From positions 3,362 through 67,361 of the forward strand of contig DASWLN010000168.1 in the NCBI GenBank assembly GCA_036396115.1: a stretch of 64,000 nt of DNA, in the 5' to 3' direction. Origin of the DNA: Candidatus Zixiibacteriota bacterium. GTDB taxonomy: Bacteria; Zixibacteria; MSB-5A5; DASWLN01. A model generated the notes under the pieces. That model saw only the letters and a list, made by a program, of their open reading frames with translations, made no database searches and had not been told where the DNA came from. Positions 39,657-55,062 of this stretch are shown here, piece after piece. Made by a program: the position numbers and the translations under genes. Each line of letters opens with the position of its first letter. Position 1 is the stretch's first letter.

Positions 39657-39880
39657 GTACGGAACAGGCATGGAGCGTTCCGTACAAAAACGGCGACATT
39701 AGAAATTGTGCCCCCGTAGGGACAGGTCGGGTGGAACATCCCGCTAGAAGGTATGATAGGGAGCAGACATGCCGCCGTGGTAATGAACGGGCATGGCGCC
39801 GTAGGGACAGGTCGAGTGGAACATCCCGCTAGAAGCGTGGAACCTGTCCTTACAGAGACGTCAATATCAAACAATCCCGG
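39657..39880. repeat. island REP cluster R1 (GTACGGAACAGGCATGGAGCGTTCCGTAC, GTAGGGACAGGTCG(G/A)GTGGAACATCCCGCTAGAAG units)
   Basis: Direct copy of these units recurs at 41648-41785 on the other side of the AbiE pair. Confidence 0.8.
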
Positions 39881-40001
39881 TTATTACCGGTTCGTATGAA
39901 TCCGTGGGTACAAAATCCCCAGAGAGAATATTTATTGACATACGAAGCTGGCAAGAGTATATTATTTTCAGTTTATCAAAAAGCACCCAACGGGGTTAAA
40001 T

Positions 40002-40775
40002 GTGAAAGAAAAAGTAATAGCAAAAAAGACGCTTTCTATTAAGGAAATAGACCTCATAACGCGTTTGGAATTCTATGGGAAAGAAATCTATACCAAAGGG
40101 GAGATTGTCTCTTTCTGTGGTGGTAGCAAACCCGCGGCATACTTGATAAAGAAGTTGTTGGAAAAAAACAGATTGAGGAAGATTATCAAAAACGTCTATC
40201 TTTTTGTTCCAATGAAGGCTCCAGGTGGCCTCTGGGCTGGGAATGAGTATTTAATTGCCAAAGCTTTGGCAAGAGGAGCTCGCTATTACATAGGATATTC
40301 CGCAGTATTTAATTCCTATGGCTTTACAGATCAAGTTGCGCAAACTATGCATGTTATCAATGATAGATATTCAATGCGTAAAACAGTTTTTGGGGTCAGG
40401 TATAAGTTGATAAAAGTTTTGCCCAACCGGCTTTACGGGTTAGAGACTCGCAAAATAGACAACGAGGATGTTGTTTTCCCGAAAAAGGAACGGGCAATGA
40501 TAGATGTGTTTGAGTTTTATAATGTAAGGAAAGCATACAGCATATTAACCGACCAAATATCTGAACTTAATACGCCCCTTCTTATCAACTATCTGACGCA
40601 ATATCCTGTTCTGGGAGTGCGAAGACGCGTGGGCTATTTTCTCGAAAAACTGAGGATCAATAGAGACCTTTTGAGTAAAATAAAAGTTGGCGAAAAAGGA
40701 TACTCCCCCTTATACGACATAGGCTCAAATCAAGGAAAGATCAATAATCGATGGAGAATTGTTATCAATGGATAG
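40002..40775 (+). CDS. abiEi: type IV toxin-antitoxin antitoxin AbiEi-like transcriptional regulator
   Basis: ~257 aa with an N-terminal wHTH. Immediately upstream of, and overlapping, an AbiEii-family gene. Confidence 0.65.
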   Translation: MKEKVIAKKTLSIKEIDLITRLEFYGKEIYTKGEIVSFCGGSKPAAYLIKKLLEKNRLRKIIKNVYLFVPMKAPGGLWAGNEYLIAKALARGARYYIGYSAVFNSYGFTDQVAQTMHVINDRYSMRKTVFGVRYKLIKVLPNRLYGLETRKIDNEDVVFPKKERAMIDVFEFYNVRKAYSILTDQISELNTPLLINYLTQYPVLGVRRRVGYFLEKLRINRDLLSKIKVGEKGYSPLYDIGSNQGKINNRWRIVING

Positions 40776-41631
40776 GGACAAGCTGGCGAGAATAATACCT
40801 GTCATTGCGCAAGAATATAACTTCAGATTGGAAATCATTGAGAAAGACTTTTATTTGACCCTCATTTTGAATAGTGTTGAGTCGCATTTAAGCGACAAAA
40901 TCGTCTTCAAGGGCGGAACGCTCTTAAATAAAATTCATCTTAATTATCACAGACTGAGCGAGGATATCGATTTTACATACCTTAGTCCGGATGGCTTAGA
41001 CACCCGCTCGAAAAGATCACATGCTTTGGCCCCGATAAGAGAGAAGATGCCCGAACTGTTGAAGCTTTTGGACCTGAAAAGCGAAAAACCCGAAGGGCAA
41101 GGTTTTAATAACTCCACTCAATATGTATTCAACATTTCCTACCCTTCTTTGATTTCCGGAAAGGACGAAAACATACAGTTAGAAATTTCATTAAGACAAA
41201 CGCCTATAGATAAGCCCGTGCATAATGTCATCGCACATTTTTATAAGGATCCTTTTACGGGTGAGGATTTAATTCCCAAGAATAAGATACTCTCGCTTTC
41301 TTTAAATGAAGCGGTTGCGGAGAAACTCAAAGCTTCAATAACAAGGAAAGATGCAGCTATCCGCGATTACTATGACTTATGGTATATATCGGAGACCAAA
41401 TTCGACTTTGAAGATAAAAAGTTCCTTTACATATTCAAGAAGAAGCTTGAATCCGAGAAATACAGAGCCAATTATTCATATAATTTCGGCTTGGATCAAA
41501 AAAAGGTTGAATTGCTTCATAAGCAAATAGAGACGGAATTAATACCTGTTATTCATGTAGGTGAAAGTTTTGATCTTGATAAAGTTTTCAGGCGGTTTAA
41601 TAGGATCTTGCAGAAAATATGGCGTGCGTGA
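40759..41631 (+). CDS. abiEii: nucleotidyltransferase AbiEii/AbiGii toxin family protein (DUF1814)
   Basis: IVFKGGTLLNKIHLNYHRLSEDIDFTY matches the KGGTAL...RFSEDID NTase signature. Confidence 0.8.
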   Translation: MLSMDRDKLARIIPVIAQEYNFRLEIIEKDFYLTLILNSVESHLSDKIVFKGGTLLNKIHLNYHRLSEDIDFTYLSPDGLDTRSKRSHALAPIREKMPELLKLLDLKSEKPEGQGFNNSTQYVFNISYPSLISGKDENIQLEISLRQTPIDKPVHNVIAHFYKDPFTGEDLIPKNKILSLSLNEAVAEKLKASITRKDAAIRDYYDLWYISETKFDFEDKKFLYIFKKKLESEKYRANYSYNFGLDQKKVELLHKQIETELIPVIHVGESFDLDKVFRRFNRILQKIWRA

Positions 41632-41647
41632 TATCCGTAAAAAGATA

Positions 41648-41785
41648 GTAGGGAACGGTCGCGTGGAACATCCCGCTAAAAGCGTGGAACCTGTCCCTAC
41701 AAAAACGGTGACATTAGAAATTGTGCCCCCGTAGGGACAGGTCGCGACCTGTCCTTAACAGAGACACCAATATCACAAGTTGTTT
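41648..41785. repeat. island REP cluster R2
   Basis: GTAGGGAACGGTCGCGTGGAACATCCCGCTAAAAGCGTGGAACCTGTCCCTAC plus GTAGGGACAGGTCGCGACCTGTCC. Confidence 0.8.
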
Positions 41786-41965
41786 GGCCTCGAGTTGGGA
41801 GAATTGAGTTGACAGAGCAATGAATTTGGAGCATATAAATAGGGTAGGTAAGATTGGTAAGACAGCTTATCCGCGAGCAAAGCAAATTCGCGCAACGAAG
41901 ATAGGACGATGGTGGGTTAAGCCTGAGGATTTAGAAAGTTTTATTAAAAGCAGGAGCAACATTCA

Positions 41966-42412
41966 ATGATGAAAATGACAAAAATTAGAGACAAATTAGA
42001 TTTAATTAGAGGGGAAATTATTTCATCTACAGCAAGAGTTGAATTTATTCTGGGCTATAAGTTAAGAAAATATTTTTTCCCCAAGGCCAATAATAAAGCA
42101 ACGATTCTTTTCTGGAACGTTATTAATACTCCTTTCCTTAATTTTGATAATAAAATTAGTCTTTATGAATCAATCCCGTATTTTAAAAAATTAAAAGGTC
42201 ATTCAGAGATTAAGAAATCTTTAAGGTTTATCCAAAAATTGAGAAATAAAATGGCTCATTGGGAACTGGATGAAAAGGAAAGCGACTTGAAGAATATTGT
42301 TATGTTTACATTGGTCGGGAAATATAGAAAAATAACAATTAATGATAGTTCAATTGAAGATTATAGGAAGCATGTTAATTTTCTTCTAAACAAATTTGGT
42401 TATAGTAGATGA
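41966..42412 (+). CDS. small HEPN-domain protein (Rx4-6H motif LRNKMAH)
   Basis: 148 aa, all-helical. HEPN signature seen directly in the sequence. Sits 115 nt upstream of the PHP-ATPase gene. Confidence 0.5.
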   Translation: MMKMTKIRDKLDLIRGEIISSTARVEFILGYKLRKYFFPKANNKATILFWNVINTPFLNFDNKISLYESIPYFKKLKGHSEIKKSLRFIQKLRNKMAHWELDEKESDLKNIVMFTLVGKYRKITINDSSIEDYRKHVNFLLNKFGYSR

Positions 42413-42526
42413 ATTTATCAGGCTTCGGTACTTGGATGCATTCATTAAGGCAAGGACAAATAAGTGAGAAAGATTTATTAATTCTGTTGAATCACATGCA
42501 TTGGGAGAGAATATAGATGCTGACAG

Positions 42527-45355
42527 ATGGAACGTTGTATGGATAAAGGTGCGCATTTTTACAGGTGTGATTTTCAAGTTCACACTCCGCGTGATCTAAA
42601 TTGGGCTGGTCCCGAGGCCGTTACACCCGAAGAAAGAAAGACATATGCGGAAGAACTGATTTTGGTTTGTCGATCCAAAGGTCTCGATGCAATCGCGATC
42701 ACGGATCATCATGACTTCGCCTTCTTCCCATACATCAAACAAGCGGCTAAAGATGAGCTTGACGACAACGGTCAACGGGTTTCTGCACACAAAAGGATCG
42801 TTGTCTTTCCTGGCATTGAAGTTACTTTAACTGCTCCGAATTGCCAAGCGTTACTTATCCTCGACGCAGACTTCCCGGAGAATCTCCTTCCAAGCGTTTT
42901 AACCGCACTGGCCATCACACCTGCGCCGGCAGAACATTCAAAGCACGCGGATGTACAGCGAATTCCCCAGAATGTTGTTAGCGATCTGACGGATTTATAT
43001 CAAAAACTGAATAGTCACCAGCAACTGAAGAATCGGTTTATCGTTTTACCTAATGTGAGCGAAACCGGATGCGGCACAATGCTACGATCCGGATTTGGTA
43101 ATTTCTATAAATCAATGCCATGCGTTGGTGGCTACACGGACGGCCCAGTGTCGCAATTTGGTACCGGGAACTTATCGATTGTTCGAGGAGAAAATCGAGA
43201 GTACGGTTTTAAGGCGATCGGAATCTTTCAAACATCTGATAATAGAAAACGCAATCACGAAGACCTCGGCAAATACACCACATGGGTTAAGTGGTCTGAG
43301 CCAACAGCGGAGGCCTTAAGACAGGCGTGTTTAGCAAAAGAATCAAGGATATCGCAAGAAGTTCCTTTGTTACCACCGGTATTCGTGACGTCAATTGATG
43401 TTTCTAACAGTAAATTCATGGGACAAATTTATCTGGAATTTAGCCAGCAATACAACGCCATAATCGGTGGTCGTGGAACTGGAAAATCAACAATCTTAGA
43501 ATATCTTAGATGGGGTTTGTGCGATCAGGTTTCAGAAATTGTACAAGATGAGGGAGAAATTCCTGGGTATCAGGAAAAAAGAAGGAAGCTTATAGAAAAG
43601 ACCCTGCTTCCGTTTGATTCTACGGTTCAGATTTCATTTGTCAAAAACAACGTTCCCCACATCCTTAGAAGAAAATCCGGAACGAACGAGATGTCTCTAA
43701 AAATTGGATCGGGGGAATTTCAACCTTGTGGTGAGGAGGATGTTAGAAACTTGCTCGCAATCCAAGCCTACAGCCAAAAGCAATTAAGCAGTGTCGGTGT
43801 CAGCATTGAGGAATTGAAAAGGCTGATTTATAGCCCCATCAGGCAAACGCTTAACGAGTTTGATTTAAAATTTGAGAAATTGCGCTCCGATATCAGAAGT
43901 TGCTATGAACTATGGCAGCAAAAAAAATTGATCGCATCTGAAATTGAGAAGGGCGAGCTTGAGCTTAAGTCATTGACTGAGCAAGTGGAAGGTCTCCGAC
44001 AAGGGCTAAAAGGAATCTCTGATCAAGATAAGGCTACAATTGCCTCCCATAAGCAATATGAAATTGTTGAGCAACATGTTGACGGTTGGCACGGAGAACT
44101 GGCGACGGCAAGAGAGGCATTAGAAACCATCAAAAGAGAACTCGCCGAGTATCCCACGACCGTACCTGATGATGTCAAATTGCCTGACACTGAGCTCATA
44201 GTTGTTACGGATATTCAGAAGACACTCAAAGACATTTTTGATGAGATTAACGCGACAGTTGATTCTTTGGGTGACAGATTAAATCCTAAGGGAGAGGTTC
44301 TGACCAAGTTAAACGATTTGATAGATAGTTGGAAAGGTGCTCTCAATCAACATAAGCGACAATATGAATCCGCAAAGCAAAAATCAACTTCACAGGAATC
44401 GACCTTAAAGCAAATCCAGATAATCGAAGATAGGGTTAAAGAAATAAGAAGATCTTTAACGGAAAGAAAGCAAGCCATGCTAAAAACAGGAGATCCCGAC
44501 ACAAAATTTAACGTCCTTAAAGAAGAGTGGTTTAACGCCCATAAGGAAAAGGCTGATTTGTTTCAAGCCCAAAGTGAGAAGTTGAATGAATTATCTGATG
44601 ATAATTTAAAAGCAACTCTAGGCAGAGGAAAGGGCACGGTAAACCTAGAAAACGTGCTAAAGGAGATAATCTCAGGTTCAAACGTGAGGAAGGAGAAAAT
44701 AGAATCTTTGTGCCAGAGAATTAAAGAGGCGACGGATCCTATTCAACAATGGAATCAAATCTTGGCCGAGTTTGAAGCAATTGCTCACTTCGATCCAACC
44801 AAAACCCCCGCCGCGACTTTACCGGCAACACCGATTTTAAGCTCTATCGGTTTTAGTGCAAACGATCTACGCAAAATAGCAGAGAAAATAAATAGCGAAA
44901 ACTGGATTGATCTATTTCTTGTTCAGTTGGACGATCTGCCTTTGTTTGAGTATCGTACTCGTGAAGGTGAGTATATAGAATTCACAGATGCTTCTGCCGG
45001 TCAACAGGCAACGTCTCTAATGAGGGTTTTATTAAATCAAGAAGGGCCTCCTCTTATAATTGATCAGCCGGAGGATGACTTGGATAATCGGATGGTTTCG
45101 GATATTGCGACTTTAATTTGGAAATCCAAGAAAACGAGGCAGTTAATATTCACAAGCCACAATGCAAACATTGTGGTTAATGGCGATGCAGAGTTGGTTG
45201 TCTGTTGCGGATACAAGGTTACGGGTGATCAATCAAAGGGTGAAATTAAGAATCAGGGAGCAATTGATATTGAGGAGATACGAGAGGAAATTATAGAGGT
45301 TATGGAGGGCGGCGAGGCAGCATTTAAGCTTCGCAAAGAAAAGTTTGGATTTTGA
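42527..45355 (+). CDS. PHP-family phosphoesterase fused to a Rad50/SMC-like ABC ATPase with a long coiled-coil insert (PplA-like defense protein)
   Basis: PHP motifs CDFQVHTPRD, AIAITDHHD, FPGIEVT. Walker A IIGGRGTGKSTILEYL. ~400 aa coiled coil. ABC signature SAGQQ, Walker B LIIDQPEDDLD, H-loop FTSHN. Alternative start at 42539. Confidence 0.7.
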   Translation: MERCMDKGAHFYRCDFQVHTPRDLNWAGPEAVTPEERKTYAEELILVCRSKGLDAIAITDHHDFAFFPYIKQAAKDELDDNGQRVSAHKRIVVFPGIEVTLTAPNCQALLILDADFPENLLPSVLTALAITPAPAEHSKHADVQRIPQNVVSDLTDLYQKLNSHQQLKNRFIVLPNVSETGCGTMLRSGFGNFYKSMPCVGGYTDGPVSQFGTGNLSIVRGENREYGFKAIGIFQTSDNRKRNHEDLGKYTTWVKWSEPTAEALRQACLAKESRISQEVPLLPPVFVTSIDVSNSKFMGQIYLEFSQQYNAIIGGRGTGKSTILEYLRWGLCDQVSEIVQDEGEIPGYQEKRRKLIEKTLLPFDSTVQISFVKNNVPHILRRKSGTNEMSLKIGSGEFQPCGEEDVRNLLAIQAYSQKQLSSVGVSIEELKRLIYSPIRQTLNEFDLKFEKLRSDIRSCYELWQQKKLIASEIEKGELELKSLTEQVEGLRQGLKGISDQDKATIASHKQYEIVEQHVDGWHGELATAREALETIKRELAEYPTTVPDDVKLPDTELIVVTDIQKTLKDIFDEINATVDSLGDRLNPKGEVLTKLNDLIDSWKGALNQHKRQYESAKQKSTSQESTLKQIQIIEDRVKEIRRSLTERKQAMLKTGDPDTKFNVLKEEWFNAHKEKADLFQAQSEKLNELSDDNLKATLGRGKGTVNLENVLKEIISGSNVRKEKIESLCQRIKEATDPIQQWNQILAEFEAIAHFDPTKTPAATLPATPILSSIGFSANDLRKIAEKINSENWIDLFLVQLDDLPLFEYRTREGEYIEFTDASAGQQATSLMRVLLNQEGPPLIIDQPEDDLDNRMVSDIATLIWKSKKTRQLIFTSHNANIVVNGDAELVVCCGYKVTGDQSKGEIKNQGAIDIEEIREEIIEVMEGGEAAFKLRKEKFGF

Positions 45356-45405
45356 TAGGTGGGAAAAATTATTAAGGCTTTATTCAATTAAACAGTAGGT
45401 AAAAA

Positions 45406-45729
45406 ATGGCGATGAAGAAATCTGAACTTTACAGCTCTCTTTGGAAAAGCTGCGATGAATTAAGAGGCGGGATGGACGCCTCACAGTATAAAGACTATGT
45501 GTTGGTTTTGTTGTTTGTCAAATACATCTCTGATAAATATGCTGGCGTGACTTACGCCCCGATCACTATTCCTCAAGGTTCAGGCTTCAAGGATATGGTG
45601 GCACTCAAGGATAAGGCGACTATTGGCGACGACATCAACAAAAGAATTATCCAAAAAATTGAAGAGGCAAATCCATCGCTTGGAAATATTGCCGTTGATT
45701 TTAACGATCCAGCAAAATTAGACAGGTGG
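45406..45729 (+). pseudogene. hsdM: type I R-M methyltransferase HsdM, N-terminal fragment only
   Basis: SELYSSLWKSCDELRGGMDASQYKDYVLVLLFVKYISDKY is the HsdM_N signature. The reading frame then runs straight into repeat cluster R3, with no MTase catalytic domain. Confidence 0.65.
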
Positions 45730-45815
45730 CCCACAGCTCTGCTGTGGGACAATTGCGGAACGGTCTCGTGGAACATCCCGCTAGTGGCGTGGAACCTGTC
45801 CTTACAGAGATGTTG
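45724..45815. repeat. island REP cluster R3 (GGTGGCCCACAGCTCTGCTGTGGG plus CGGAACGGTCTCGTGGAACATCCCGCTAGTGGCGTGGAACCTGTCC)
   Basis: Same composite as 51098-51180. Confidence 0.8.
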
Positions 45816-45908
45816 ACAGAGCAAGCGGGATTGTTCTATAATATAGAACAGTTGTATGATATGAGCGAACTTGATCTATTATAATTTCAAGAATTTTGGG
45901 TAGGGTCA

Positions 45909-46817
45909 ATGATTATTGCAGAACGACAAGTTAAACCTTTTCTCAAATGGGCCGGCGGTAAAGGTCAGCTTATCGAACAAGTTGTTTCATACTTACCCTC
46001 TTCTCTAAAGGAAGGAAGAATAAAGAAATACTTTGAACCTTTTTTGGGCGGTGGGGCTCTTTTCTTCTGGTTGGCCAAACAATACGAGTTCAGGTCGTCT
46101 TACTTGTACGAAATTAATCCCGCAGTATGTCTTTGTTATCAAGTCATCAAAAAGAATGTGAGAAAGCTGGTTAAGGAATTACAGCAGTTGGAATTAGAAT
46201 ACTTTTCGTCTACTGAAAATAGAAAAGAACAAATTTACTACGATAGACGAGAAGAATTTAATGCGTTTTTACACGGGAAGGCATCCAATGGCGTTGTCCA
46301 TCGAACTGCCCTGTTAATATTTCTTAATAAAACGTGTTATAATGGGCTCTATCGCGTGAATTCACAAGGCGAATTTAATGTTCCCTTCGGACGATATAAG
46401 AAACCTACGATTTGCGACGAAGACAATCTTCATGCTGTTAGTGAATTACTGCAAAAGGCAGAGATCGTTTGTGGGGATTTTGCGCTATGTTTGGACTATG
46501 CGGACGACAAATCTTTTGTTTACTTTGATCCGCCATATCGACCCATATCTTCGACGTCAAGCTTTACGAGTTATTCAAAGGGTGTTTTTGATGATGCCGA
46601 GCAGAAACGCTTAAGAAAGGTTTATGGTTCGCTCGATAAGAAAGGTGCTTGCATAATGCTAAGCAATTCTGACCCAAAGAACATGAACCCCGAAGATAAT
46701 TTCTTTGATGAATTGTATAACAGATATCGTATTGTAAGGTTGAATGCAACAAGACTTATCAATTGCAACGCCAACCAAAGGGGCGTTATCACCGAGATAT
46801 TAGTGATGAACTATTAA
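45909..46817 (+). CDS. Dam-family (alpha-class, D12) N6-adenine DNA methyltransferase
   Basis: PFLKWAGGKGQL motif I and DPPY motif IV (FDPPY). Confidence 0.85.
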   Translation: MIIAERQVKPFLKWAGGKGQLIEQVVSYLPSSLKEGRIKKYFEPFLGGGALFFWLAKQYEFRSSYLYEINPAVCLCYQVIKKNVRKLVKELQQLELEYFSSTENRKEQIYYDRREEFNAFLHGKASNGVVHRTALLIFLNKTCYNGLYRVNSQGEFNVPFGRYKKPTICDEDNLHAVSELLQKAEIVCGDFALCLDYADDKSFVYFDPPYRPISSTSSFTSYSKGVFDDAEQKRLRKVYGSLDKKGACIMLSNSDPKNMNPEDNFFDELYNRYRIVRLNATRLINCNANQRGVITEILVMNY

Positions 46818-46826
46818 AAAGGATGT

Positions 46827-47600: not shown

Positions 47601-47617
47601 ATGAGTCATTAAGCGCA

Positions 47618-48413: not shown

Positions 48414-48443
48414 CAGGTGGCCCACAGCCCTGCTGTGGAAGAA
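48414..48443. repeat. island REP unit R4 (GGTGGCCCACAGCCCTGCTGTGG hairpin)
   Basis: Identical to the 5' part of R3 and R5. Confidence 0.7.
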
Positions 48444-48536: not shown

Positions 48537-49337
48537 ATGAAAGAAGTAACCTCAGAAATCGACGGATTGGTGGTTCGTTCTAGCGGGATATGGATTAAAC
48601 AAAAATATTACTACTTGAAAAGATACCTGGATATTTTTTCAAAAGGAATGAAGAATAGATGGAAAGGAAATTTAACTTATATTGATCTATTTGCTGGACC
48701 TGGGCGTTGTTTAATAGAATCTATTAAGGAAGAAGAAGACGGTTCTCCTTTAATAGCATTGCAGTACGATTTTAAGAAATACGTTTTTGTTGAAGAATCA
48801 AAAGAACTAATTGAGGCTTTGAAAACAAGATGTAAAAATTCCCCCAAGTTTAGCAGGATTGAATTTTTAGAAGGAGATTGCAATAATGTTGTTGATGAAA
48901 TTATTCCTCAGGTTGACCCAGCCGGTTTAAACCTTATTTTTATTGATCCTACCGGAATCGATATCCATTACAAGACCATTGAAAGAATTGTTAAAAACAA
49001 CCGATCTGATTTGTTAATTAATGTTCAGCTCGGGATGTATATCACTAGAAATTTTCTTGCCTATAAGAAAAAGGGTGATAATTCAAAACTGGGATTATTC
49101 TTAGGGGGTAACGTTGATTGGGATAAATTAAAGAATCCCCAGGATGCAGTTAAGTTGTATAAAGAGCGTATCAAGGGGCTGGGTTATCAGACAGTAGAAT
49201 TCAAAGACATTACTATTAAAAATACCCTAAATGCCCCGATGTACTTTTTATTATTTGCTTCAAAGAATCCAAAAGGCCTGCATTTTTGGAAAGAGATAAC
49301 TAAAAAAGATCATTCTGGGCAGTTCGAGTTGTTTTAG
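48537..49337 (+). CDS. TcmP-like (three-Cys-motif partner protein) family candidate
   Basis: Recalled resemblance to TIGR04474-type proteins. Contains YIDLFAGPG, reminiscent of C5-MTase motif I (DLFAGxGG). Immediately upstream of a Cx3Cx3C protein. Confidence 0.5.
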   Translation: MKEVTSEIDGLVVRSSGIWIKQKYYYLKRYLDIFSKGMKNRWKGNLTYIDLFAGPGRCLIESIKEEEDGSPLIALQYDFKKYVFVEESKELIEALKTRCKNSPKFSRIEFLEGDCNNVVDEIIPQVDPAGLNLIFIDPTGIDIHYKTIERIVKNNRSDLLINVQLGMYITRNFLAYKKKGDNSKLGLFLGGNVDWDKLKNPQDAVKLYKERIKGLGYQTVEFKDITIKNTLNAPMYFLLFASKNPKGLHFWKEITKKDHSGQFELF

Positions 49338-49387
49338 CAAGAAAATTATCTTTCAGTATAATTCGTGGAAGATGGTATAATATAAAC

Positions 49388-50170
49388 ATGGAAAAAATTT
49401 ACCGTAAGTCTCTTTTGTACAAAAGTGAAGTCGAATACGCAGATTTTTGTTTGAATCATGTAGAAGGATGCTCCCATGGTTGCAAATATCCGTGCTATGC
49501 TTATATGATGAAAAAGAGGTGCGGGATTGTTAAAAGCTACGATGACTGGTGCAAACCAAAAATAGTAGGTAATGCGTTAGACCTCTTAGACAAAGAAATT
49601 CCTAAATATAAAAGCAAGATCAAATATGTGCACCTCTGTTTTTCTACTGATCCATTTATGTATAATCAAGAAGAAGTGAGCGATTTAAGCCTGAAAATAA
49701 TCGATAAGCTTAATTTAAACGGTATCCGTTGCACTGTTCTGACAAAAGGCGTTTTTCCTGAAGAAGTTGGTCATAAAACTGTTTTTAGCAAAAACAACGA
49801 ATATGGCATTACACTTGTTTCATTGGATGAAAATTTCAGAAAGAAATTTGAGCCAAATTCAGCCCCTTTTCGCAATAGAATTCGTTCGCTTGAGGATATA
49901 CACAAACAAGGTTTTAAGACCTGGGTGAGCATGGAACCATACCCTACTCCTAATTTGATTAAGCAAGATTTGCTTGAAATATTGGAAGCGGTGTCCTTTG
50001 TGGACCAGATTATCTTTGGCAGGTTGAATTACAGTGTGAAATCCTCGGAGTTTGGACATGCAAAGGAATTCTATAACAGTATGGCCTCGTCAGTGATTAA
50101 GTTTTGCAGGAAGCACAAGATCAAATACCATATTAAAGATGGAACCCAGAAGCTAAGTGGTGGACAATAG
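49388..50170 (+). CDS. non-canonical three-Cys-motif radical-SAM-like protein
   Basis: CLNHVEGCSHGCKYPCY gives a Cx3Cx3C cluster in place of the canonical Cx3Cx2C (compare hemW in this window). Confidence 0.5.
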   Translation: MEKIYRKSLLYKSEVEYADFCLNHVEGCSHGCKYPCYAYMMKKRCGIVKSYDDWCKPKIVGNALDLLDKEIPKYKSKIKYVHLCFSTDPFMYNQEEVSDLSLKIIDKLNLNGIRCTVLTKGVFPEEVGHKTVFSKNNEYGITLVSLDENFRKKFEPNSAPFRNRIRSLEDIHKQGFKTWVSMEPYPTPNLIKQDLLEILEAVSFVDQIIFGRLNYSVKSSEFGHAKEFYNSMASSVIKFCRKHKIKYHIKDGTQKLSGGQ

Positions 50171-50336
50171 TCTCTTTTTAAGGCACTACTCGGCAGACAA
50201 AACAGGGATTGCTTCGCTAAAGCTCACAATGACAGCTGAATACTGCAACTTAGTACGCCACCAAAGTTTTAGCGAGTGAAGGGAAAAGGGACCTTACCCG
50301 ATGGGTGGGGTACACTTGTTATCATGGGAGAAAAAC

Positions 50337-51044
50337 ATGACTAGGGCAGATAAATTTTTGTCTCTTTTTAATCTTATTGAAAAAACCCTTCACAAAATAA
50401 GTCCTCGCGAGCCTGGTGAGGGTTTTAAGGAAATGATTAATCGTCTCAGCAAGTCTAACAAGATTATTTGCCAATATAAATATGATTTAAGGGACTACGC
50501 CGACCTTAGAAATGCAATAGTTCATCAGTTTACAGGGGAAGCCATCGCCGAACCGCACGAAGATGTTATTGCCAATCTACAAACAATCCATGATATTTTG
50601 GTTAGACCACCGACAGCCATTGAAATTTCCTCCAAACCTGTTTATTGTTGCGAAGCAAAGGATAAAATTGTTGATGTAGTAAAAACAATGACAGCCAAAG
50701 TTTACACCCATGTCCCCGTTTACGAAGATGATAGATTCGTTGGTGTTTTCTCCGAATCCAGTATTGCAAGGTGGTTAGGCGAAAATGCGGAGAAAGACGG
50801 ATTTCTTTTGAATGAAACGAGAGTTGGGGAACTAAAACAATTCTTTGAGAAAGATAATGACCCCTTCAATTCTTACAAATTTGTTTCAAAGGATATTGAC
50901 GTATTTACTATTATGGACTATTTCTTATCTTTTGTTAATGAAAATAAACGTTTAGGAGCTATTTTTGTAACGAATAGCGGCAGGAGCAGTGAAGGAATAT
51001 TAGGAATTATTACATCATGGGATTTACCAAGAATTGATAAATAG
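50337..51044 (+). CDS. HEPN-like N-domain plus tandem CBS-domain protein
   Basis: N-terminal helical domain with Rx4H (LRNAIVH). C-terminal CBS pair (VYTHVPVYEDDRFVGVFSESSIARWL and GAIFVTNSGRSSEGILGIITSWDL). Confidence 0.5.
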   Translation: MTRADKFLSLFNLIEKTLHKISPREPGEGFKEMINRLSKSNKIICQYKYDLRDYADLRNAIVHQFTGEAIAEPHEDVIANLQTIHDILVRPPTAIEISSKPVYCCEAKDKIVDVVKTMTAKVYTHVPVYEDDRFVGVFSESSIARWLGENAEKDGFLLNETRVGELKQFFEKDNDPFNSYKFVSKDIDVFTIMDYFLSFVNENKRLGAIFVTNSGRSSEGILGIITSWDLPRIDK

Positions 51045-51097
51045 AAGAGAAAAGGTACTATATTCATCGGGGCTCAGTAATACTTACCACCCCACCG

Positions 51098-51325
51098 GCA
51101 GGTGGCCCACAGCCCTGCTGTGGGAGAGTTGCGGAACGGTCTCGTGGAACATCCCGCTGAAAGCGTGGAGCCGTTCCCTACAGAGAAGGTTGCGTGGGTG
51201 ATTTTAGGGTAGGGAACAGGCATGCCTGTTCCGTACAAAACGGCCGCGTGGATGATTGTGATGTAGGGACAGGTCACGTGGATGATTTTAGCGTAGGGAA
51301 CAGTCGCGACTGTTCCCTACAAAAA
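51098..51325. repeat. island REP cluster R5
   Basis: GGTGGCCCACAGCC..., CGGAACGGTCTCGTGGAACATCCCGCTGAAAGCGTGGAGCCGTTCCCTAC, GTAGGGAACAGGCATGCCTGTTCCGTAC, 30-nt CGCGTGGATGATTGTGA units and GTAGGGAACAGTCGCGACTGTTCCCTAC. Confidence 0.8.
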
Positions 51326-51345
51326 GATGAAGGCGATGTTTGTGT

Positions 51346-52629
51346 ATGAAAGTCAATACAAAACCGGATAAACTATGGGATGTGGTGGTGATTGGTGGTG
51401 GGCCGGCGGGGATGATGGCAGCGGGGAGGGCGGCTGAGTTGGGTCGCTCGGTTTTGCTCGTCGAGAAAAACGCAATTCTTGGCAAAAAGCTTCTCCTTAC
51501 CGGCGGCGGACGGTGTAATCTTTCCAATAATAAACCAGAACTTCGCACGATGCTGGCAAAATACAAAGGCGTTGACCAATTTCTTTTCTCCGCTTTTTCA
51601 CAGTTCGGCGTAGAAGATACGCTTGAGTTTTTTAAGCGGCAAGGGATGGCGACCAAGGAGGAAGCGGAGGGGAGGATTTTCCCTGTTTCAAATAAAGCGC
51701 AAACAGTGTTGGACGTACTGGTGAGCTATATGAAAGAGGGCGGTGTTGAATTACGAACCAACTCTGTAGTTACAAGGCTTTGGGTTGATGCTTCCAATAC
51801 CGCCACACAGCACATCCGTATCCGACTTAAGGACAAAACAGAGTTGTTGGCGCAATCCTGCGTTGTTGCCAGCGGAGGCACGGCACGTCCGGCAACCGGT
51901 TCAACTGGGGATGGATTTGCGTGGCTTAAAAAAATCGGCCACACCATCATCCAGGACGACGTTGCGCTTGTGCCCGTCGCGCTTAAAGATGCGTGGGCAA
52001 AGAAACTGAGCGGAGTAACGCTTATAGATATTAAGCTCACCACTTTTCAAAACAAAGAGAAACAGGAAGTTGGGAAAGGTGAACTGCTCTTTACGCACTT
52101 TGGCATCAGCGGGCCAACAGTTTTAGATATGAGTAAAGAAATAGGAGAACTTTTAAAATACGGCGAAGTTACCATCATGCTAGATATATTTCCGAAACTT
52201 GATCACGGCGCGCTCAGGGATAAACTGCAGACGCTTTTGAATAGCCAGAGTAACAAGAAGTTAAAAAATACGATGAATAAGCTCGTCCCTTTAGCGCTTG
52301 TGCCGGCGATACTCCGACTGACTGGTGTAGATGGCCAGTTACCCAGTCATAGCCTGAGGCGCGAGCATAGGATAAAATTGGTTAGTGTGATGAAGGCCAT
52401 CCCGCTTAATGTCAAGGGTTTGCTTGGTGCGGATAAAGCGATTGTCTGTTCTGGTGGCGTAGCGCTCGAAGAAGTAGATTTCAGAACCATGCAGTCGCGC
52501 CTGGTACCAAATTTATATATTGTGGGCGATTTACTGAACATCGATCGCCCCTCAGGAGGCTATAGCCTCCAGCTCTGTTGGACAACCGGCTTTGTGGCGG
52601 GGAGCAATACGGAACGGTCGCGTGGATGA
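51346..52629 (+). CDS. HI0933/BaiN-family NAD(P)/FAD-dependent flavoprotein
   Basis: VVVIGGGPAGMMAAGRAA, GGGRCNLSN and the C-terminal HI0933 domain. Its last codons overlap the start of repeat cluster R6. Confidence 0.85.
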   Translation: MKVNTKPDKLWDVVVIGGGPAGMMAAGRAAELGRSVLLVEKNAILGKKLLLTGGGRCNLSNNKPELRTMLAKYKGVDQFLFSAFSQFGVEDTLEFFKRQGMATKEEAEGRIFPVSNKAQTVLDVLVSYMKEGGVELRTNSVVTRLWVDASNTATQHIRIRLKDKTELLAQSCVVASGGTARPATGSTGDGFAWLKKIGHTIIQDDVALVPVALKDAWAKKLSGVTLIDIKLTTFQNKEKQEVGKGELLFTHFGISGPTVLDMSKEIGELLKYGEVTIMLDIFPKLDHGALRDKLQTLLNSQSNKKLKNTMNKLVPLALVPAILRLTGVDGQLPSHSLRREHRIKLVSVMKAIPLNVKGLLGADKAIVCSGGVALEEVDFRTMQSRLVPNLYIVGDLLNIDRPSGGYSLQLCWTTGFVAGSNTERSRG

Positions 52630-52795
52630 TTGTGATGTACGGACAGGTCGCGACCTGTCCCTACAAAAACGGCCGCGTGGTTGATTGTGACGTTAGGAAC
52701 GGTCGCGTGGATGATTTTGGCGTAGGGAACAGGCATGCCTGTTCCCTACTTGAGAGCGTGGAACCGTTCCCTACAGAAACACCAATATCAAAAAA
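52609..52795. repeat. island REP cluster R6
   Basis: Tandem 30-nt CGCGTGGATGATTGTGA units interleaved with GTACGGACAGGTCGCGACCTGTCCCTAC and GTAGGGAACAGGCATGCCTGTTCCCTAC. Confidence 0.8.
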
Positions 52796-52807
52796 TGCCA
52801 ATCAACA

Positions 52808-52969
52808 ATGCGAAATAGAAAACCAAACCGTTTGAAGGGGTATGATTATTCGCAAAGTGGTGTGTATTTTGTAACCGTGTGTGCACAAAACCGCATTGAA
52901 TGGTTTGGTGAAATCGAAAACGGGGAAATGGCCTTATGCCTGGAAAAAGAAGAATCTGGATGTATATAA
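52808..52969 (+). pseudogene. REP-associated tyrosine transposase (RAYT, IS200-like Y1 transposase) N-terminal remnant
   Basis: Manual translation gives MRNRKPNRLKGYDYSQSGVYFVTVCAQNRIEWFGEIENGEMALCLEKEESGCI*. The GYDYSQxGxYFVTxCxxNR block is the characteristic RAYT N-terminus. It terminates after 53 aa, before any HUH or Tyr motifs. Abuts R6. Confidence 0.55.
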
Positions 52970-52987
52970 TCGGTTAGGGAAAGAAAA

Positions 52988-53581
52988 ATGATAATCCGTT
53001 GCACGGCAAGATTTTTAAAAGAAATGGGATTAACCAAGGCCGATCTCACCAGCAACACTTCAGAAGAATCAGAGTTGGGCGAGTGGTATACTAATCTGTT
53101 TTTTGTCGAACGTAAGAAATGTGTGATTTTTACTAATGCCCGAACTTTATTTACGTTCATATGGTTTGATGTTGATAGATCAGAGATCAGGAATCTTGGT
53201 AAGCTTTTCCGCATTGGTTTCGGCAAGGCCCTATTGGATGAAGATTTCGATGGTGCGTTGATACAGCATCTCGTTAACGAGTGCCGAGATATACGATTTG
53301 CCAAAACACAAGACAGAAGCGTACTCGGCGTTATGGTGGATCACGTCAAGAACACAAAATGGATGGTCATACGCGATGGCGGATTAGAAAAATCCGATTT
53401 CTCTGAAATAATAAAACAACTTAATCGCACACCGCTTTTAACGAAAGACTTTACTTATTCTATTGAGGAGCTTGGGAAGGTTTTGGGAGTTGCTGTAGAT
53501 ACGAAACTTAATTTTAATCCGTCTAATACGTTTTTGTCATCAAGCGCGCCCGAAATAAGGGACAATAAGGAACAGGCTTAA
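52988..53581 (+). CDS. hypothetical protein, 197 aa
   Basis: Protein-like composition on the island's coding strand. No family recognised. Confidence 0.4.
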   Translation: MIIRCTARFLKEMGLTKADLTSNTSEESELGEWYTNLFFVERKKCVIFTNARTLFTFIWFDVDRSEIRNLGKLFRIGFGKALLDEDFDGALIQHLVNECRDIRFAKTQDRSVLGVMVDHVKNTKWMVIRDGGLEKSDFSEIIKQLNRTPLLTKDFTYSIEELGKVLGVAVDTKLNFNPSNTFLSSSAPEIRDNKEQA

Positions 53582-53589
53582 GAGACAAT

Positions 53590-53770
53590 ATGGTTGATTG
53601 TGACGTACGGAACGGTCTCGTGGAACATCCCGCTGAAAGCGTGGAACCGTTCCCTACAAAAACGGCCGCGTGGATGATTGTGACGTACGGAACGGCCGCG
53701 TGGATGATTGTGACATGTGGAACGGTCGCGTGGAACATCCCGCTAACAGCGTGGAACCGTTCCCTACGAA
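53590..53770. repeat. island REP cluster R7
   Basis: Three tandem 30-nt units flanked by CGGAACGGTCTCGTGGAACATCCCGCTGAAAGCGTGGAACCGTTCCCTAC copies. Confidence 0.8.
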
Positions 53771-53797
53771 AACCGAATATACCTCGAGGAGGTTTGA

Positions 53798-54847
53798 GTG
53801 CCATTTAACCCGAAATTCACTATTACCGCGAAAATCAACAAGGCGCTGGTAGAAATTGAACGGGTGCGGGGGTTCTTAGATGCGTTGAAGCTCAAGGATG
53901 ACTGGTTTATTGATATGCAACAAAAAGCATTAATCTTAGAGTCGCACCATTCCACGCATATTGAAGGCACAGCCTTAAGCTTGCAGCAAGCCAAGTCCAT
54001 CCTGGAAGGCAAAAAGGCCAATGGTGTCAGGGCTGACGATAAAAGGGAACTTACAAATTACAAGAAGGCCATGGATTTGGTTTCAAGATATCTTGGCAAG
54101 GATGATCCAATCACCGAAAGCGCTATCTCTGGGCTTCACAAAGTTACTGTGAAAAGCGTCCGTGGCGGACAGGCAGACCCGGGCAATTACCGGAAAATCC
54201 AGAATTATGTGGTCAATTCCCGCACCCGGAAAGTAATTTACACCCCGCCGGGTCCGCTTACGGTCCCGCTTCTCATGCGCGAGTTTGTAGATTGGCTCAA
54301 CAAAACCGAGGAGGTGTCGCCGATTCTTGTTGCCGGCATAGCGCAGTTTCAGTTTGTGCATATTCATCCCTTTGTTGACGGCAATGGCCGGATGGCCCGG
54401 CTTCTCTCAACTTTAATCCTTTACAAAACCGGCTATGACTTCAAGCGGTTATTTACCATCTCGGAGTATTACGACAAAGACCGTCCAAGCTACTATAAGG
54501 CCATCCAGTCAGTGCGTGAGGGCAATATGGACATGACCGGCTGGCTGGAGTACTTCGTTTGTGGCCTGCGTTCGCAGATGGAAGAAATCCAAGCTAAAGG
54601 CCAGCAGTTAATTAAACAAGATGTCAAACTTCAGAAGATTAAAAAACTTGGGATTGGCCTGCGTCAGGAAAAGGCGGTCAAGCATCTAATTATTAAAGGT
54701 ACGATTACGGTTAATGAATATCAGGAGATTGCCTCATGTGTCCGACGGACAGCCCAGAGAGATTTGGAAGATTTAGTTGACAAAGGCATCATCCAAGCCG
54801 TGGCCAAGAGCGCTACCGATCCCACAAAGTATTACGTTTTACTGTGA
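53798..54847 (+). CDS. Fic/DOC family protein (putative AMPylase)
   Basis: Canonical Fic motif HPFVDGNGRMARL and a C-terminal wHTH (TAQRDLEDLV). Confidence 0.85.
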   Translation: MPFNPKFTITAKINKALVEIERVRGFLDALKLKDDWFIDMQQKALILESHHSTHIEGTALSLQQAKSILEGKKANGVRADDKRELTNYKKAMDLVSRYLGKDDPITESAISGLHKVTVKSVRGGQADPGNYRKIQNYVVNSRTRKVIYTPPGPLTVPLLMREFVDWLNKTEEVSPILVAGIAQFQFVHIHPFVDGNGRMARLLSTLILYKTGYDFKRLFTISEYYDKDRPSYYKAIQSVREGNMDMTGWLEYFVCGLRSQMEEIQAKGQQLIKQDVKLQKIKKLGIGLRQEKAVKHLIIKGTITVNEYQEIASCVRRTAQRDLEDLVDKGIIQAVAKSATDPTKYYVLL

Positions 54848-55062
54848 CACGTTACTGTGACATACTGTGACATGCTACTGTGACATACGGAACGGTCTCG
54901 TGGTTGATTTTAGCGTAGGGAACAGGCATGCCTGTTCCCTACAAAAACGGACGCGGGGATGATTGTGACATACGGAATGGTCGCGTGGATGATTGTGATG
55001 TAGGGACAGGTCGCGTGGATGATTGTCGCGTAGGGAATGGTCGCGACCATTCCCTACAAAAG
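54841..55062. repeat. island REP cluster R8
   Basis: (T)ACTGTGACA x4 tandem, then GTAGGGAACAGGCATGCCTGTTCCCTAC, 30-nt units and GTAGGGAATGGTCGCGACCATTCCCTAC. The Fic stop codon lies in the first ACTGTGACA unit. Confidence 0.8.

What the first reader, a model, noticed from the sequence alone, without database searches (positions are those of the whole stretch)
39657..55062. Co-oriented accessory/defense island in which every module is delimited by the same composite REP cluster
Between 39.6 and 55.1 kb all genes are on the + strand and fall into seven blocks (AbiEi/ii; HEPN plus PHP-ATPase plus hsdM remnant; M-R-M; TcmP/3-Cys/HEPN-CBS; flavoprotein; 197-aa hypothetical; Fic). Each block is followed by a cluster (R1-R8) built from the same units: GGTGGCCCACAGCCCTGCTGTGG, CGGAACGGTCTCGTGGAACATCCCGCT..GCGTGGAACCGTTCCCTAC, 30-nt CGCGTGGATGATTGTGA tandem units and GTAGGGA..GGTCGCGACC..TCCCTAC palindromes. 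This cassette-plus-recombination-site layout resembles an integron/CALIN array, and also fits REP/BIME-mediated shuffling of defense modules.
Basis: seen in the sequence. Interest (0 to 1): 0.8.

Follow-up and report, generated by a model that had tools for sequence, protein, structure and literature searches.

The report
Defence island stitched by REP arrays
A 15.7-kb, strain-variable anti-phage gene island in an uncultured Zixibacteria chromosome has its modules separated by arrays of small palindromic repeats (REPs) that belong to a now-dead REP transposase gene lying inside the island; it is not an integron, but the repeats look like the seams at which modules are swapped.

Summary
Window 39,655-55,320 is an insertion. 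A related genome has the same flanking genes 105 nt apart, separated by one REP doublet. A sister genome carries a different, reordered gene set at the same site. The repeats are GTAG-headed REP/BIME-type arrays: 28-nt palindromes, a 53-nt long form, and 30-nt left-arm tandem units. They are about 20-fold enriched in the island per intergenic base, while a second palindrome family populates the rest of the window.

They flank DUF6933 and Fic. A relative has the RAYT intact.

The integron reading fails. No tyrosine recombinase was found, no attC core motifs, the hairpins are perfect and sequence-conserved, and modules have their own promoter-like sites.

Best explanation: a chromosomal defence hotspot whose REP arrays serve as recombination seams. 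Modules are bracketed by direct repeats of array pieces, and hsdM and RAYT are truncated at array edges. The arrays probably also act as transcript ends. Whether the RAYT catalysed the exchanges is untested.

Side finding: this RAYT family carries its own REP palindrome in-frame inside its ORF.

The parts
38401..39654 (+). Conserved left flank: 417-aa OMP-like protein with no family hit
   Evidence: Orthologs are 83% (L162) and 63% (L173) identical. It is colinear in all three genomes.
39657..39853 (+). R1 array: imperfect 28-nt palindrome directly after the OMP stop codon, 30-nt spacer, truncated long REP, then a full 53-nt long REP
   Evidence: The first palindrome is orthologous in the window, L162 and L173 (A4).
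40002..41631 (+). AbiEi/AbiEii module (type IV toxin-antitoxin / abortive infection)
   Evidence: Pfam AbiEii 5e-30. PADLOC AbiEi 2e-38 and AbiEii 6e-40. A promoter-like site matching 11 of 12 positions lies at 39935. The positional homologs in L162 are only 32% and 53% identical.
41648..41758 (+). R2 array: long REP, the same 30-nt spacer, then a 28-nt palindrome. A 51-nt piece repeats R1 at 96% identity.
   Evidence: repeat family D12.
41966..45355 (+). 148-aa protein (Rx4H motif only) plus a 942-aa TrlF-family / Ppl-like PHP-ATPase
   Evidence: NCBIfam TrlF_fam_ATP 4e-154. PADLOC Ppl 4.5e-50. The 148-aa protein has no family hit.
45406..45722 (+). hsdM remnant (HsdM_N domain only). The ORF runs on into R3.
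   Evidence: Pfam HsdM_N 3.6e-15, residues 10-103. The sequence shows hairpin A starting at 45725.
45723..45805 (+). R3: hairpin A (8-bp stem, CCT loop) plus a long REP with a degenerate head
   Evidence: It is 88% identical over 88 nt to the start of R5 (family D2).
45909..48406 (+). Type II restriction-modification module: Dam-class MTase, REase (DUF6996/6997), N4/N6 MTase
   Evidence: A 12-of-12 promoter-like site lies at 45813.
48414..48440 (+). R4: hairpin A alone
48537..51044 (+). TcmP (PDC-M41A), a radical-SAM protein and a CBS-domain protein. A degenerate family-2 palindrome lies at 50207-50233.
   Evidence: TIGR04474 2.7e-46. Radical_SAM and CBS hits. PADLOC PDC-M41A. The rSAM block alone is shared with L162 at 93%. 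Family-2 palindrome.
51099..51320 (+). R5 array: hairpin A, long REP, 28-nt palindrome, two 30-nt units, 28-nt palindrome
51346..52629 (+). HI0933-type (aminoacetone oxidase family) flavoprotein. It has about 50% GC. Its natural TAG stop is replaced by the head of a REP unit.
   Evidence: Junction sequence. Best relatives outside this lineage are Patescibacteria.
52607..52774 (+). R6 array: 30-nt unit, palindrome, two 30-nt units, palindrome, right half of a long REP
52808..52936 (+). RAYT pseudogene, N-terminal fragment (residues 1-43 of the 185-aa L164 protein)
   Evidence: 79% identity.
52988..53581 (+). DUF6933 protein
   Evidence: Pfam 1e-39. It is 89% identical to L162, where it lies upstream of the flavoprotein.
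53590..53767 (+). R7 array: long REP, two 30-nt units, long REP
53798..54847 (+). Fic-domain protein
   Evidence: Pfam Fic 7e-18. It is absent from L161/L164 and from L162.
54840..54999 (+). R8 array: TACTGTGAC repeats, a 30-nt unit, a palindrome, two 30-nt units
55000..55272 (+). RAYT pseudogene, C-terminal fragment (residues 83-173, two in-frame stops). Its first 58 nt are the in-frame 30-nt unit plus the 28-nt palindrome.
   Evidence: (NF047646, 1e-7).
55333..55641 (+). Conserved right flank: 102-aa membrane protein, followed by DUF6754 operons
   Evidence: In L173 it lies directly next to the OMP gene.

Best explanation
Window 39,655-55,320 is a variable defence/accessory island. It occupies one intergenic hotspot of a Zixibacteria chromosome, between an OMP-like gene and a 102-aa membrane-protein gene. 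The repeats are REP/BIME-type arrays of a GTAG-headed REP family whose cognate HUH tyrosine transposase (RAYT/TnpA_REP) lies in the island as two dead fragments.

SHOWN:
- The ancestral-type site holds a single REP doublet.
- The island begins immediately 3' of that orthologous REP.
- Content and order differ between close relatives.
- In this genome every junction between blocks is a REP array or hairpin A.
- Modules are bracketed by direct repeats of array pieces.
- Two genes end abruptly at array edges.

INFERRED:
- The arrays are the seams at which DNA segments are integrated, looped out and swapped. The mechanism would be Campbell-type recombination between array copies, using host homologous or microhomology recombination, and possibly RAYT-assisted while the enzyme was alive.
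- Because each module has its own promoter-like site and no canonical terminator, the hairpin arrays probably also act as transcript 3' ends or stabilisers.
For: (1) Empty site. L173 is colinear with window 27.0-39.66 kb and 55.32-63.6 kb. It has a 105-nt spacer containing one 30-nt-like unit and one 28-nt palindrome.

(2) Variable content. L162 is 87-89% identical in nucleotides. It has OMP-R1 followed by a different gene set: AbiE, GIY-YIG, RadC, another HsdM_N, rSAM, a second AbiE, an MntA-like pair, DUF6933 and the flavoprotein. DUF6933 lies on the other side of the flavoprotein.

(3) REP identity and RAYT link. The units have GTAG heads and form perfect hairpins. An intact 185-aa RAYT flanked by the same units lies next to the orthologous flavoprotein in L161/L164. 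The same palindromes flank RAYTs of this family in two unrelated genomes, L171 and L179; L178 and L169 have no RAYT-flanking copies.

(4) Enrichment. 28 of 33 arms lie in the island, 10.3 per kb of intergenic DNA against 0.49 outside. Six of 12 intergenic gaps in the island carry arms against 2 of 24 outside (p=0.009). A second palindrome family shows the opposite distribution.

(5) Seams.
- hsdM is cut at hairpin A.
- RAYT residues 44-82, including the HUH motif, are missing between the two fragments, where DUF6933-R7-Fic-R8 now lies.
- The flavoprotein stop codon is fused to a REP head.
- Direct repeats bracket the modules: AbiE (51 nt, 96%); the RM plus Tcm modules (88 nt, 88%, with hairpin A between them); and RAYT-N through Fic (122 nt, 78%).
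- In L164 the flavoprotein plus its REP array sits inside a ~60-nt direct duplication of REP tail, RAYT leader and the first 20 nt of RAYT.

(6) Promoter-like sites matching 12 of 12 and 11 of 12 positions lie just after R3 and R1. No terminator-like sites lie between modules.
Against: - In L162 the modules differ without GTAG REPs between them. Turnover at this hotspot therefore does not need these arrays.
- The rSAM block is shared with breakpoints that do not lie at GTAG REPs. Its 3' end carries a family-2 palindrome instead.
- Any repeat inserted between non-homologous blocks will coincide with homology breakpoints, so coincidence alone is weak evidence.
- The left junction of the DUF6933 insertion, near 52,940, has no REP.
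- The RAYT here is dead, so any catalysis lies in the past.
- The C-terminal fragment is 59% identical to the L164 RAYT and the N-terminal fragment 79%. They may be remnants of two copies rather than one split gene.
- Only 64 kb of this genome and three related loci were available, all from metagenome assemblies.
Confidence: 0.55

Rival explanations
1. The REPs are passive. They spread locally from the neighbouring RAYT into the 3' intergenic regions of an island that was already assembled and turns over by ordinary hotspot mechanisms, such as flank-mediated homologous recombination. The arrays act only as terminators or mRNA stabilisers, or do nothing, and have no role in module exchange.
For: - REPs are typically located downstream of ORFs and cluster around RAYT genes (PMC3733652; L171 and L179).
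- L162 shows module turnover without these REPs.
- All long REPs are co-oriented with the genes.
- No canonical terminators lie between modules.
Against: - It does not explain why hsdM and RAYT end exactly at array edges.
- It does not explain the direct repeats of 34-122 nt that bracket modules.
- It does not explain the leader/5'-RAYT duplication around the flavoprotein in L164.
- It does not explain why the island starts exactly at the 3' end of the orthologous REP.
Confidence: 0.25
2. A HUH-based gene-capture platform that works like an integron. The RAYT treats REP hairpins that bracket a gene as left and right ends, excises the segment as single-stranded DNA, and re-inserts it next to another REP. 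Cassettes of the form 'gene + 3' REP array' then stack head to tail beside the RAYT gene.
For: - The layout is 'gene + 3' array'.
- Insertion lies exactly 3' of ...CCCTAC at the island's left end and at a GTAG/TAG microhomology at the flavoprotein stop.
- Unrelated genes bracketed by REPs lie immediately upstream of RAYTs in L164 (flavoprotein) and L171 (a 337-aa protein of unknown function).
- REP-head-like TAAGGGAC motifs lie at the edges of the DUF6933 block.
Against: - No RAYT has been shown to move genes.
- Most RAYTs of this family that were sampled sit singly among housekeeping genes with no cargo array (L178, L179).
- Modules here are 2-5 kb multi-gene units with their own promoters.
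- The left junction at about 52,940 lacks a REP.
- L162 shuffles genes without REPs.
Confidence: 0.12
3. An integron or CALIN array: cassettes with attC sites recombined by an IntI tyrosine recombinase.
For: There are co-oriented genes, each followed by a structured repeat.
Against: - No IntI or other tyrosine recombinase in the scanned ORFs of the window.
- No attC core motifs.
- The palindromes are perfect and sequence-conserved, without extrahelical bases.
- There are internal promoter-like sites.
- The repeats are demonstrably RAYT-type REPs.
Confidence: 0.02
4. An assembly artefact: short-read metagenome assembly joined modules from different strains through the shared repeat arrays.
For: Independent Logan contigs of the same organism break at the arrays (L001, L003, L175). 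This shows that the arrays trouble assemblers.
Against: - The repeats are shorter than k=141 and only 78-96% identical.
- The ENA contig is identical to the window over every part of it that was fetched (20.2 kb).
- The Logan fragments agree with local adjacency.
- An independent sample and assembly (L162) shows an island at the same site.
Confidence: 0.05

Closest known systems
REP/BIME arrays and their RAYT (TnpA_REP) in Enterobacteria, Pseudomonas and Stenotrophomonas; REPIN-RAYT systems (PMC2817692, PMC3116915, PMC3733652, PMC8266576)
   Same: - The units are GTAG-headed palindromes 20-40 nt long.
- They are clustered into mosaic arrays downstream of ORFs.
- The cognate HUH Y1 transposase gene is flanked by the same repeats.
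- A REP head can supply a TAG stop codon.
   Different: - Units are head-to-tail and co-oriented, not alternating.
- In the available sequence the family is low-copy and concentrated in one island instead of spread genome-wide.
- The array units include 30-nt left-arm-only tandem repeats and a 53-nt long form.
- The RAYT is broken, with defence genes between its two fragments.
TnpA_REP subclass 2.4 of Quentin et al. 2018 (PMC6006769)
   Same: The paper describes a variable insertion domain between beta3 and alphaC, just after the HUH motif, and attributes it to short DNA repeats. That is the position of the in-frame palindrome and 30-nt units seen here.
   Different: - I did not place this protein in their classification.
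- The text I read notes short repeats, but not that the insert is the cognate REP palindrome.
- It also does not mention the compensatory changes that keep the insert a perfect palindrome.
Core chromosomal defence hotspots without mobility genes (P. aeruginosa cDHS, PMC10250203; E. coli hotspots, PMC10121019)
   Same: Conserved flanking genes with an empty site in one genome. Different sets of known defence systems (AbiE, type II RM, Ppl/TrlF-like, PDC-M41A) at the same site in others.
   Different: - The hotspot is marked by a REP in the empty state.
- In this genome the internal module boundaries are REP arrays.
- The island also holds non-defence cargo: the flavoprotein, DUF6933 and a RAYT.
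Integrons, CALINs and the Vibrio superintegron VCR repeats (own knowledge)
   Same: Works-like resemblance only: co-oriented genes, each followed by a hairpin-forming repeat. The array content varies between strains.
   Different: - No IntI and no attC cores.
- The hairpins are perfect and sequence-conserved.
- Cassettes are multi-gene units with their own promoters.
- The associated enzyme is a HUH transposase, not a tyrosine recombinase.
Neisseria intergenic mosaic elements (dRS3/RS arrays) and minimal mobile elements (own knowledge, not checked here)
   Same: Arrays of short repeats lie between genes, at sites of variable gene content and rearrangement. Exchange is by recombination rather than by an element-encoded integrase.
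   Different: The repeat family and the organisms are unrelated, and no RAYT is involved.

Membership tests
Integron / CALIN | intI tyrosine recombinase next to the array (required for an integron; absent by definition in a CALIN) | tested here: not met
   No Phage_integrase-type hit among the window ORFs of at least 150 aa that were scanned. The rest of the genome could not be searched.
Integron / CALIN | attC sites with R'' (RYYYAAC) and R' (GTTRRRY) cores as an imperfect palindrome | tested here: not met
   Neither motif occurs in any of R1-R8. No complementary pair 45-150 nt apart occurs anywhere in the window. IntegronFinder and HattCI were not available.
Integron / CALIN | attC sites are conserved in structure but variable in sequence, with extrahelical bases on the folded bottom strand | tested here: not met
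   The units are conserved in sequence. They fold into perfect 12-bp stems with 4-nt loops.
Integron / CALIN | Mostly promoterless, single-ORF cassettes | tested here: not met
   Modules hold 1-3 genes and span 0.6-3.9 kb. The strongest promoter-like sites in the region lie at 45813 and 39935, just downstream of arrays (consensus scan only).
GTAG-type REP / BIME | Short palindrome (20-40 nt) with a GTAG head that forms a stable hairpin | tested here: met
   GTAGGGAMMGGTCGCGACCKKTCCCTAC and GTAGGGAACAGGCATGCCTGTTCCCTAC. Folds give z-scores of -3.9 to -5.7 for the arrays.
GTAG-type REP / BIME | Association with a RAYT gene flanked by the same repeats | tested here: met
   There are RAYT fragments in the window. 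The intact RAYT in L164 is flanked by the arrays. The same holds in L171 and L179.
GTAG-type REP / BIME | High copy number dispersed over the chromosome | tested here: inconclusive
   Only 2 single REPs lie in the 48 kb outside the island. There is 1 in 21 kb of L173. No whole genome is available.
GTAG-type REP / BIME | REPs in alternating orientation within a BIME | tested here: not met
   The asymmetric units (long REPs and 30-nt units) are all in direct orientation on the + strand.
RAYT / TnpA_REP (HUH Y1 transposase) | HUH motif and the conserved C-terminal half; match to the family profile | tested here: inconclusive
   - The L164 protein has MPNHFHGI and WQKSFYDH. It matches NF047646 at 1e-14, but its 54.6 bits fall below the 80-bit cutoff.
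- JGI names close homologs RayT.
- The window copy lacks the HUH region and has stop codons.
Chromosomal defence island / hotspot | Conserved flanks with presence/absence and content variation; several recognised defence systems | tested here: met
   Empty site in L173 and different content in L162. PADLOC hits to AbiE, Ppl, type II RM and PDC-M41A.

The most novel reading that the evidence does not exclude
The RAYT/REP system of this lineage is, or was, a gene-capture platform based on HUH single-strand chemistry. Genes bracketed by REP hairpins would be excised and re-inserted 3' of other REPs. Stacked 'gene + REP array' cassettes would accumulate beside the RAYT gene, giving a functional analogue of an integron built from a domesticated IS200-like transposase. 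The palindrome conserved inside the RAYT ORF would be part of this system, as a self-target or control site.
Probability: 0.12. Interest if true: 0.9.

Novelty: new variant of a known kind. Interest (0 to 1): 0.6.

Why it matters
How defence islands at core hotspots exchange modules without integrases or transposases is an open question. Here a hotspot is marked by a REP when empty. When filled, it is subdivided by REP arrays that bracket modules as direct repeats and truncate genes. That yields a concrete, testable hypothesis: REP arrays are portable recombination seams, possibly used by their HUH transposase. It would also give REPs and RAYTs, whose benefit to the host is debated, a role in genome plasticity. 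A separate point bears on RAYT regulation and REP origin: this RAYT family keeps its own REP as a perfect in-frame palindrome through compensatory changes.

Tried and rejected
- Integron features (recombinase, attC cores, attC-type folds) were looked for and not found.
- Rfam at gathering thresholds gave nothing on the window, L162 or L164. No tRNA or tmRNA was found as an integration target.
- IMG/VR scans:
  - Hairpin A and the 30-nt unit have no match.
  - The 15-nt core of the long REP gives 81 hits. That is roughly what I estimate for chance, and none shows the REP context.
  - The 28-nt palindrome occurs singly in about 9 contigs of varied GC, with no RAYT nearby.
  - A RAYT-profile scan of IMG/VR gave only one locus.
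- The GTDB genome scan with the flavoprotein returned only distant relatives (66% identity or less, mostly Patescibacteria). None carries the repeats.
- P0241 is an identical OMP on a 22-kb JGI contig and could have shown strain-level variation. It could not be retrieved.
- Looking up Thi4 returned only the same genome.
- I first read the two RAYT fragments as one split gene. Their unequal divergence from the L164 RAYT (79% against 59%) means two copies cannot be excluded.
- The genes upstream of the RAYTs in L171 and L169 are unrelated to each other, so there is no conserved partner gene.

Full report
WHAT THE WINDOW IS

- The window is a chromosomal stretch of an uncultured bacterium. NCBI names the exact flavoprotein sequence as coming from a candidate division Zixibacteria MAG (P0001).
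- It starts with yidC, mnmE, mnmG, rsmG, parA and parB. It continues with housekeeping genes including ilvC, lepA, lepB, pth and rplI.
- GC skew is positive over most of the window, and nearly all genes from 25 kb onward are on the + strand.
- The sequence is identical to ENA contig ERZ27256988:k141_3834228 over every part of it that was fetched.

THE OBSERVATION

The repeat units are real and far above chance. I sort them into the following types.
- C: 28-nt perfect palindromes, GTAGGGAMMGGTCGCGACCKKTCCCTAC and GTAGGGAACAGGCATGCCTGTTCCCTAC.
- B: a 53-nt 'long REP'. It is a C unit with 25 nt (TGGAACATCCCGCTnnnnGCGTGGA) inserted at its tip.
- D: 30-nt units made of the left arm plus TGGATGATTGTGAC, repeated in tandem.
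- E: TACTGTGAC repeats, which resemble the tail of D.
- A: an unrelated hairpin, GGTGGCCCACAGCCCTGCTGTGG.

All asymmetric units are on the + strand. As single strands the arrays fold into perfect 12-bp stems.

The clusters are not uniform:
- R1 and R2 are B/C units with a shared 30-nt spacer.
- R3 is A+B.
- R4 is A alone.
- R5-R8 are mixtures that contain D units.

The exception is that neither 'HEPN' label is backed by a profile hit.

WHAT WAS MISSED: THE TRANSPOSASE

- Translating the 'non-coding' DNA after R6 and after R8 gives the N-terminus (52,808-52,936) and the C-terminal half (55,000-55,272, with two stop codons) of a REP-associated tyrosine transposase.
- A JGI contig (L161) and an ENA contig (L164) from a related organism carry the orthologous flavoprotein at 81% nucleotide identity. 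It is followed by an E-D-B array, an intact 185-aa RAYT and another array.
- That protein has the HUH motif. It matches NCBIfam REP_Tyr_transpos at 1e-14, below the family cutoff.
- It has more than 3,000 homologs, many of which JGI names RayT.
- In the window, residues 44-82, including the HUH motif, are missing. DUF6933, R7, Fic and most of R8 lie between the two fragments.
- The N-fragment is 79% identical to the L164 RAYT and the C-fragment 59%. The two pieces may be one split gene or remnants of two copies.

THE REPEATS ARE THIS TRANSPOSASE'S REPs

- The last two units of 'R8' are in-frame codons of the RAYT.
- In an alignment of 20 homologs from several phyla, the peptide VG[N/T/G]GRD[R/L][S/P]LQ is conserved between the HUH motif and KIKxLSELIGAFKTTSSK.
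- In all five genes whose DNA I fetched, this peptide is encoded by a perfect 28-nt palindrome. There are four sequence variants. One is GCAGGGAACGGCCGCGGCCGTTCCCTGC, which differs from the others through compensatory changes.
- Across the 72 homologs with a recognisable motif, 68 have residue combinations compatible with perfect complementarity. Ten of 13 distinct combinations are compatible, against 4.1 expected under shuffling (P about 0.0005).
- The same palindromes flank the RAYT genes in L171 and L179.
- Quentin et al. 2018 noted a variable insertion domain with short DNA repeats at this position in their TnpA_REP subclass 2.4. The feature is therefore partly known.

THE ISLAND IS AN INSERTION AT A HOTSPOT

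- L173 comes from the same sample and is probably the same organism as L164. It is colinear with the window on both sides.
- There the OMP-like gene and the 103-aa gene are only 105 nt apart. That spacer holds one D-like unit and one C palindrome.
- The C palindrome directly after the OMP stop codon is orthologous in all three genomes, and the island starts right after its ...CCCTAC.
- L162, a closer relative at 87-89% nucleotide identity, has OMP, an R1-like array, and then a different island. Its content is a diverged AbiE pair, GIY-YIG, RadC, a different HsdM_N-only ORF, the same rSAM gene (93%), a second AbiE pair, an MntA-like pair, DUF6933 (89%) and the flavoprotein (89%).
- In L162, DUF6933 lies upstream of the flavoprotein rather than downstream, and there is no RAYT.
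It is not met.

DISTRIBUTION

- Of 33 REP arms in the window, 28 lie in the island. That is 10.3 per kb of intergenic DNA, against 0.49 outside.
- By intergenic gap, 6 of 12 in the island carry arms against 2 of 24 outside (p=0.009).
- A second palindromic family (GTCATTGCGAG...CGAAGCAATC) occupies about nine sites in the core part of the window and only one, degenerate, in the island.
- L173 has a single GTAG REP in 21 kb, at the empty site. In L164 all arms surround the flavoprotein and RAYT.
- Within the sequence available, these are therefore not generic, evenly spread REPs.

SEAMS

- hsdM stops at hairpin A.
- The RAYT is interrupted at its internal REP.
- The flavoprotein's TAG stop is fused to a REP head.
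- The W-versus-L162 homology blocks for the flavoprotein end at 51,319/20 and 52,609, which are array edges. The DUF6933 block ends at 53,588, which is also an array edge.
- Direct repeats of array pieces bracket the modules:
  - 51 nt at 96% identity around AbiE.
  - A+B, 88 nt at 88%, around the RM and Tcm modules, with hairpin A between them.
  - 122 nt at 78% around RAYT-N through Fic.
- In L164 the flavoprotein with its array lies inside a ~60-nt direct duplication of REP tail, RAYT leader and the first 20 nt of RAYT.
- These are the footprints expected from Campbell-type integration or excision between copies of array sequence.

CAVEATS

- L162 turns over modules without GTAG REPs between them.
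- The rSAM block ends at a family-2 palindrome.
- The left junction near 52,940 has no REP.

NOT AN INTEGRON

- No tyrosine recombinase was found among the scanned ORFs of the window.
- There are no attC cores.
- The hairpins are perfect and sequence-conserved.
- The strongest promoter-like sites in the region lie just downstream of R1 and R3.

MECHANISM

I commit at about 0.55 to REP arrays acting as recombination seams of a chromosomal defence hotspot, with a probable secondary role as transcript ends.
- Shown: insertion at a REP-marked site, variable content, the REP-RAYT cognacy, enrichment in the island, direct-repeat bracketing, and truncated genes.
- Inferred: that recombination between arrays, and not later REP colonisation, produced the layout, and whether the RAYT took part.

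The passive-REP rival stands at 0.25. A HUH-driven capture platform stands at 0.12. It draws some support from REP-bracketed unrelated genes immediately upstream of RAYTs in L164 and L171. Other RAYTs of the family sit alone among housekeeping genes.

NOVELTY AND SCORE

- REPs, BIMEs, RAYTs and core defence hotspots are all known.
- A literature search returned no top-ranked paper containing both the REP phrase and the defence-island terms.
- I rate this a new variant of a known kind, with interest 0.6.
- Main limits: everything rests on metagenome assemblies, 64 kb of the focal genome, and three related loci.

Noticed in passing
window 55000-55057; L164 11655-11714; L169 4569-4596; L171 10268-10295; L178 10253-10280; L179 10268-10295: RAYTs of this family carry their own REP as a perfect 28-nt palindrome in-frame inside the ORF, encoding the peptide VGxGRDxxLQ just after the HUH motif. 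Compensatory nucleotide and amino-acid changes preserve it across phyla. In some members, 30-nt (10-codon) units are repeated in-frame upstream of it. This was partly noted for TnpA_REP subclass 2.4 by Quentin et al. 2018.
   Followed up: partly
window 11406, 17548, 17931-18008, 19872-19949, 24596-24689, 31583-31681, 32619-32653, 37477-37568, 63655-63808; one degenerate copy at 50207-50233: A second, unrelated palindromic repeat family (GTCATTGCGAG...CGAAGCAATC) is dispersed in intergenic regions of the core chromosome and almost absent from the island. It also occurs in L162 (about 5265-5300 and 6960-6995).
   Followed up: partly
window 14130-14156 and 37584-37610; L162 about 7000-7025: A third palindrome, AGGCGACATTCGCGAATGTCGCCT, is present as two identical 27-nt copies in the window, and as a variant in the sister genome's island.
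   Followed up: no
window 21826-21918 and 28345-28449; L002 20940-21043 (just beyond the window end): A repeat of about 100 nt is present in at least three copies at 91-94% identity. A 52-nt piece also matches L161 and L164. Its nature is unknown.
   Followed up: no
window 55864-63619: Three tandem paralogous gene sets each start with a DUF6754 protein (55864, 59349, 62816). They are followed by similar genes of about 217, 283 and 222-243 aa. L173 has the same triplication.
   Followed up: no
L162 about 7100-7300 and 9140-9330: A repeat of about 200 nt (AACCGGAGGGCGGTGGAGCACGGGTTCAAGTACTGG...) lies upstream of the MntA-like gene and upstream of DUF6933 in the sister island. It has no Rfam match and could be a non-coding RNA or a mobile-element end.
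   Followed up: partly
window 51346-52629: The flavoprotein (aminoacetone oxidase family) has about 50% GC against about 42% for the window. Apart from three close relatives (P0002, P0003 and the partial gene on L161), its best matches (77% or less) include many Patescibacteria/CPR and Omnitrophota, which suggests horizontal acquisition. In L164 it sits at a different chromosomal locus, after a MiaB-like gene, together with the RAYT.
   Followed up: partly
window 45406-45722; L162 3905-4219: Both islands carry an ORF of about 104 codons that encodes only the HsdM N-terminal domain. The two are only 42% identical over 43 residues. They are either independent remnants or a recurrent small gene.
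   Followed up: partly
L169 4278-4832 and 5097-5124: In an unrelated MAG (GCA_026990435.1), a RAYT of this family sits inside a type I restriction-modification operon, directly upstream of hsdR. A second copy of its palindrome lies inside the called hsdR ORF.
   Followed up: no
window 667-9708: The window starts with the origin-proximal gene set yidC-mnmE-mnmG-rsmG-parA-parB. The island therefore lies about 40-55 kb from the likely replication origin, on the leading strand.
   Followed up: no
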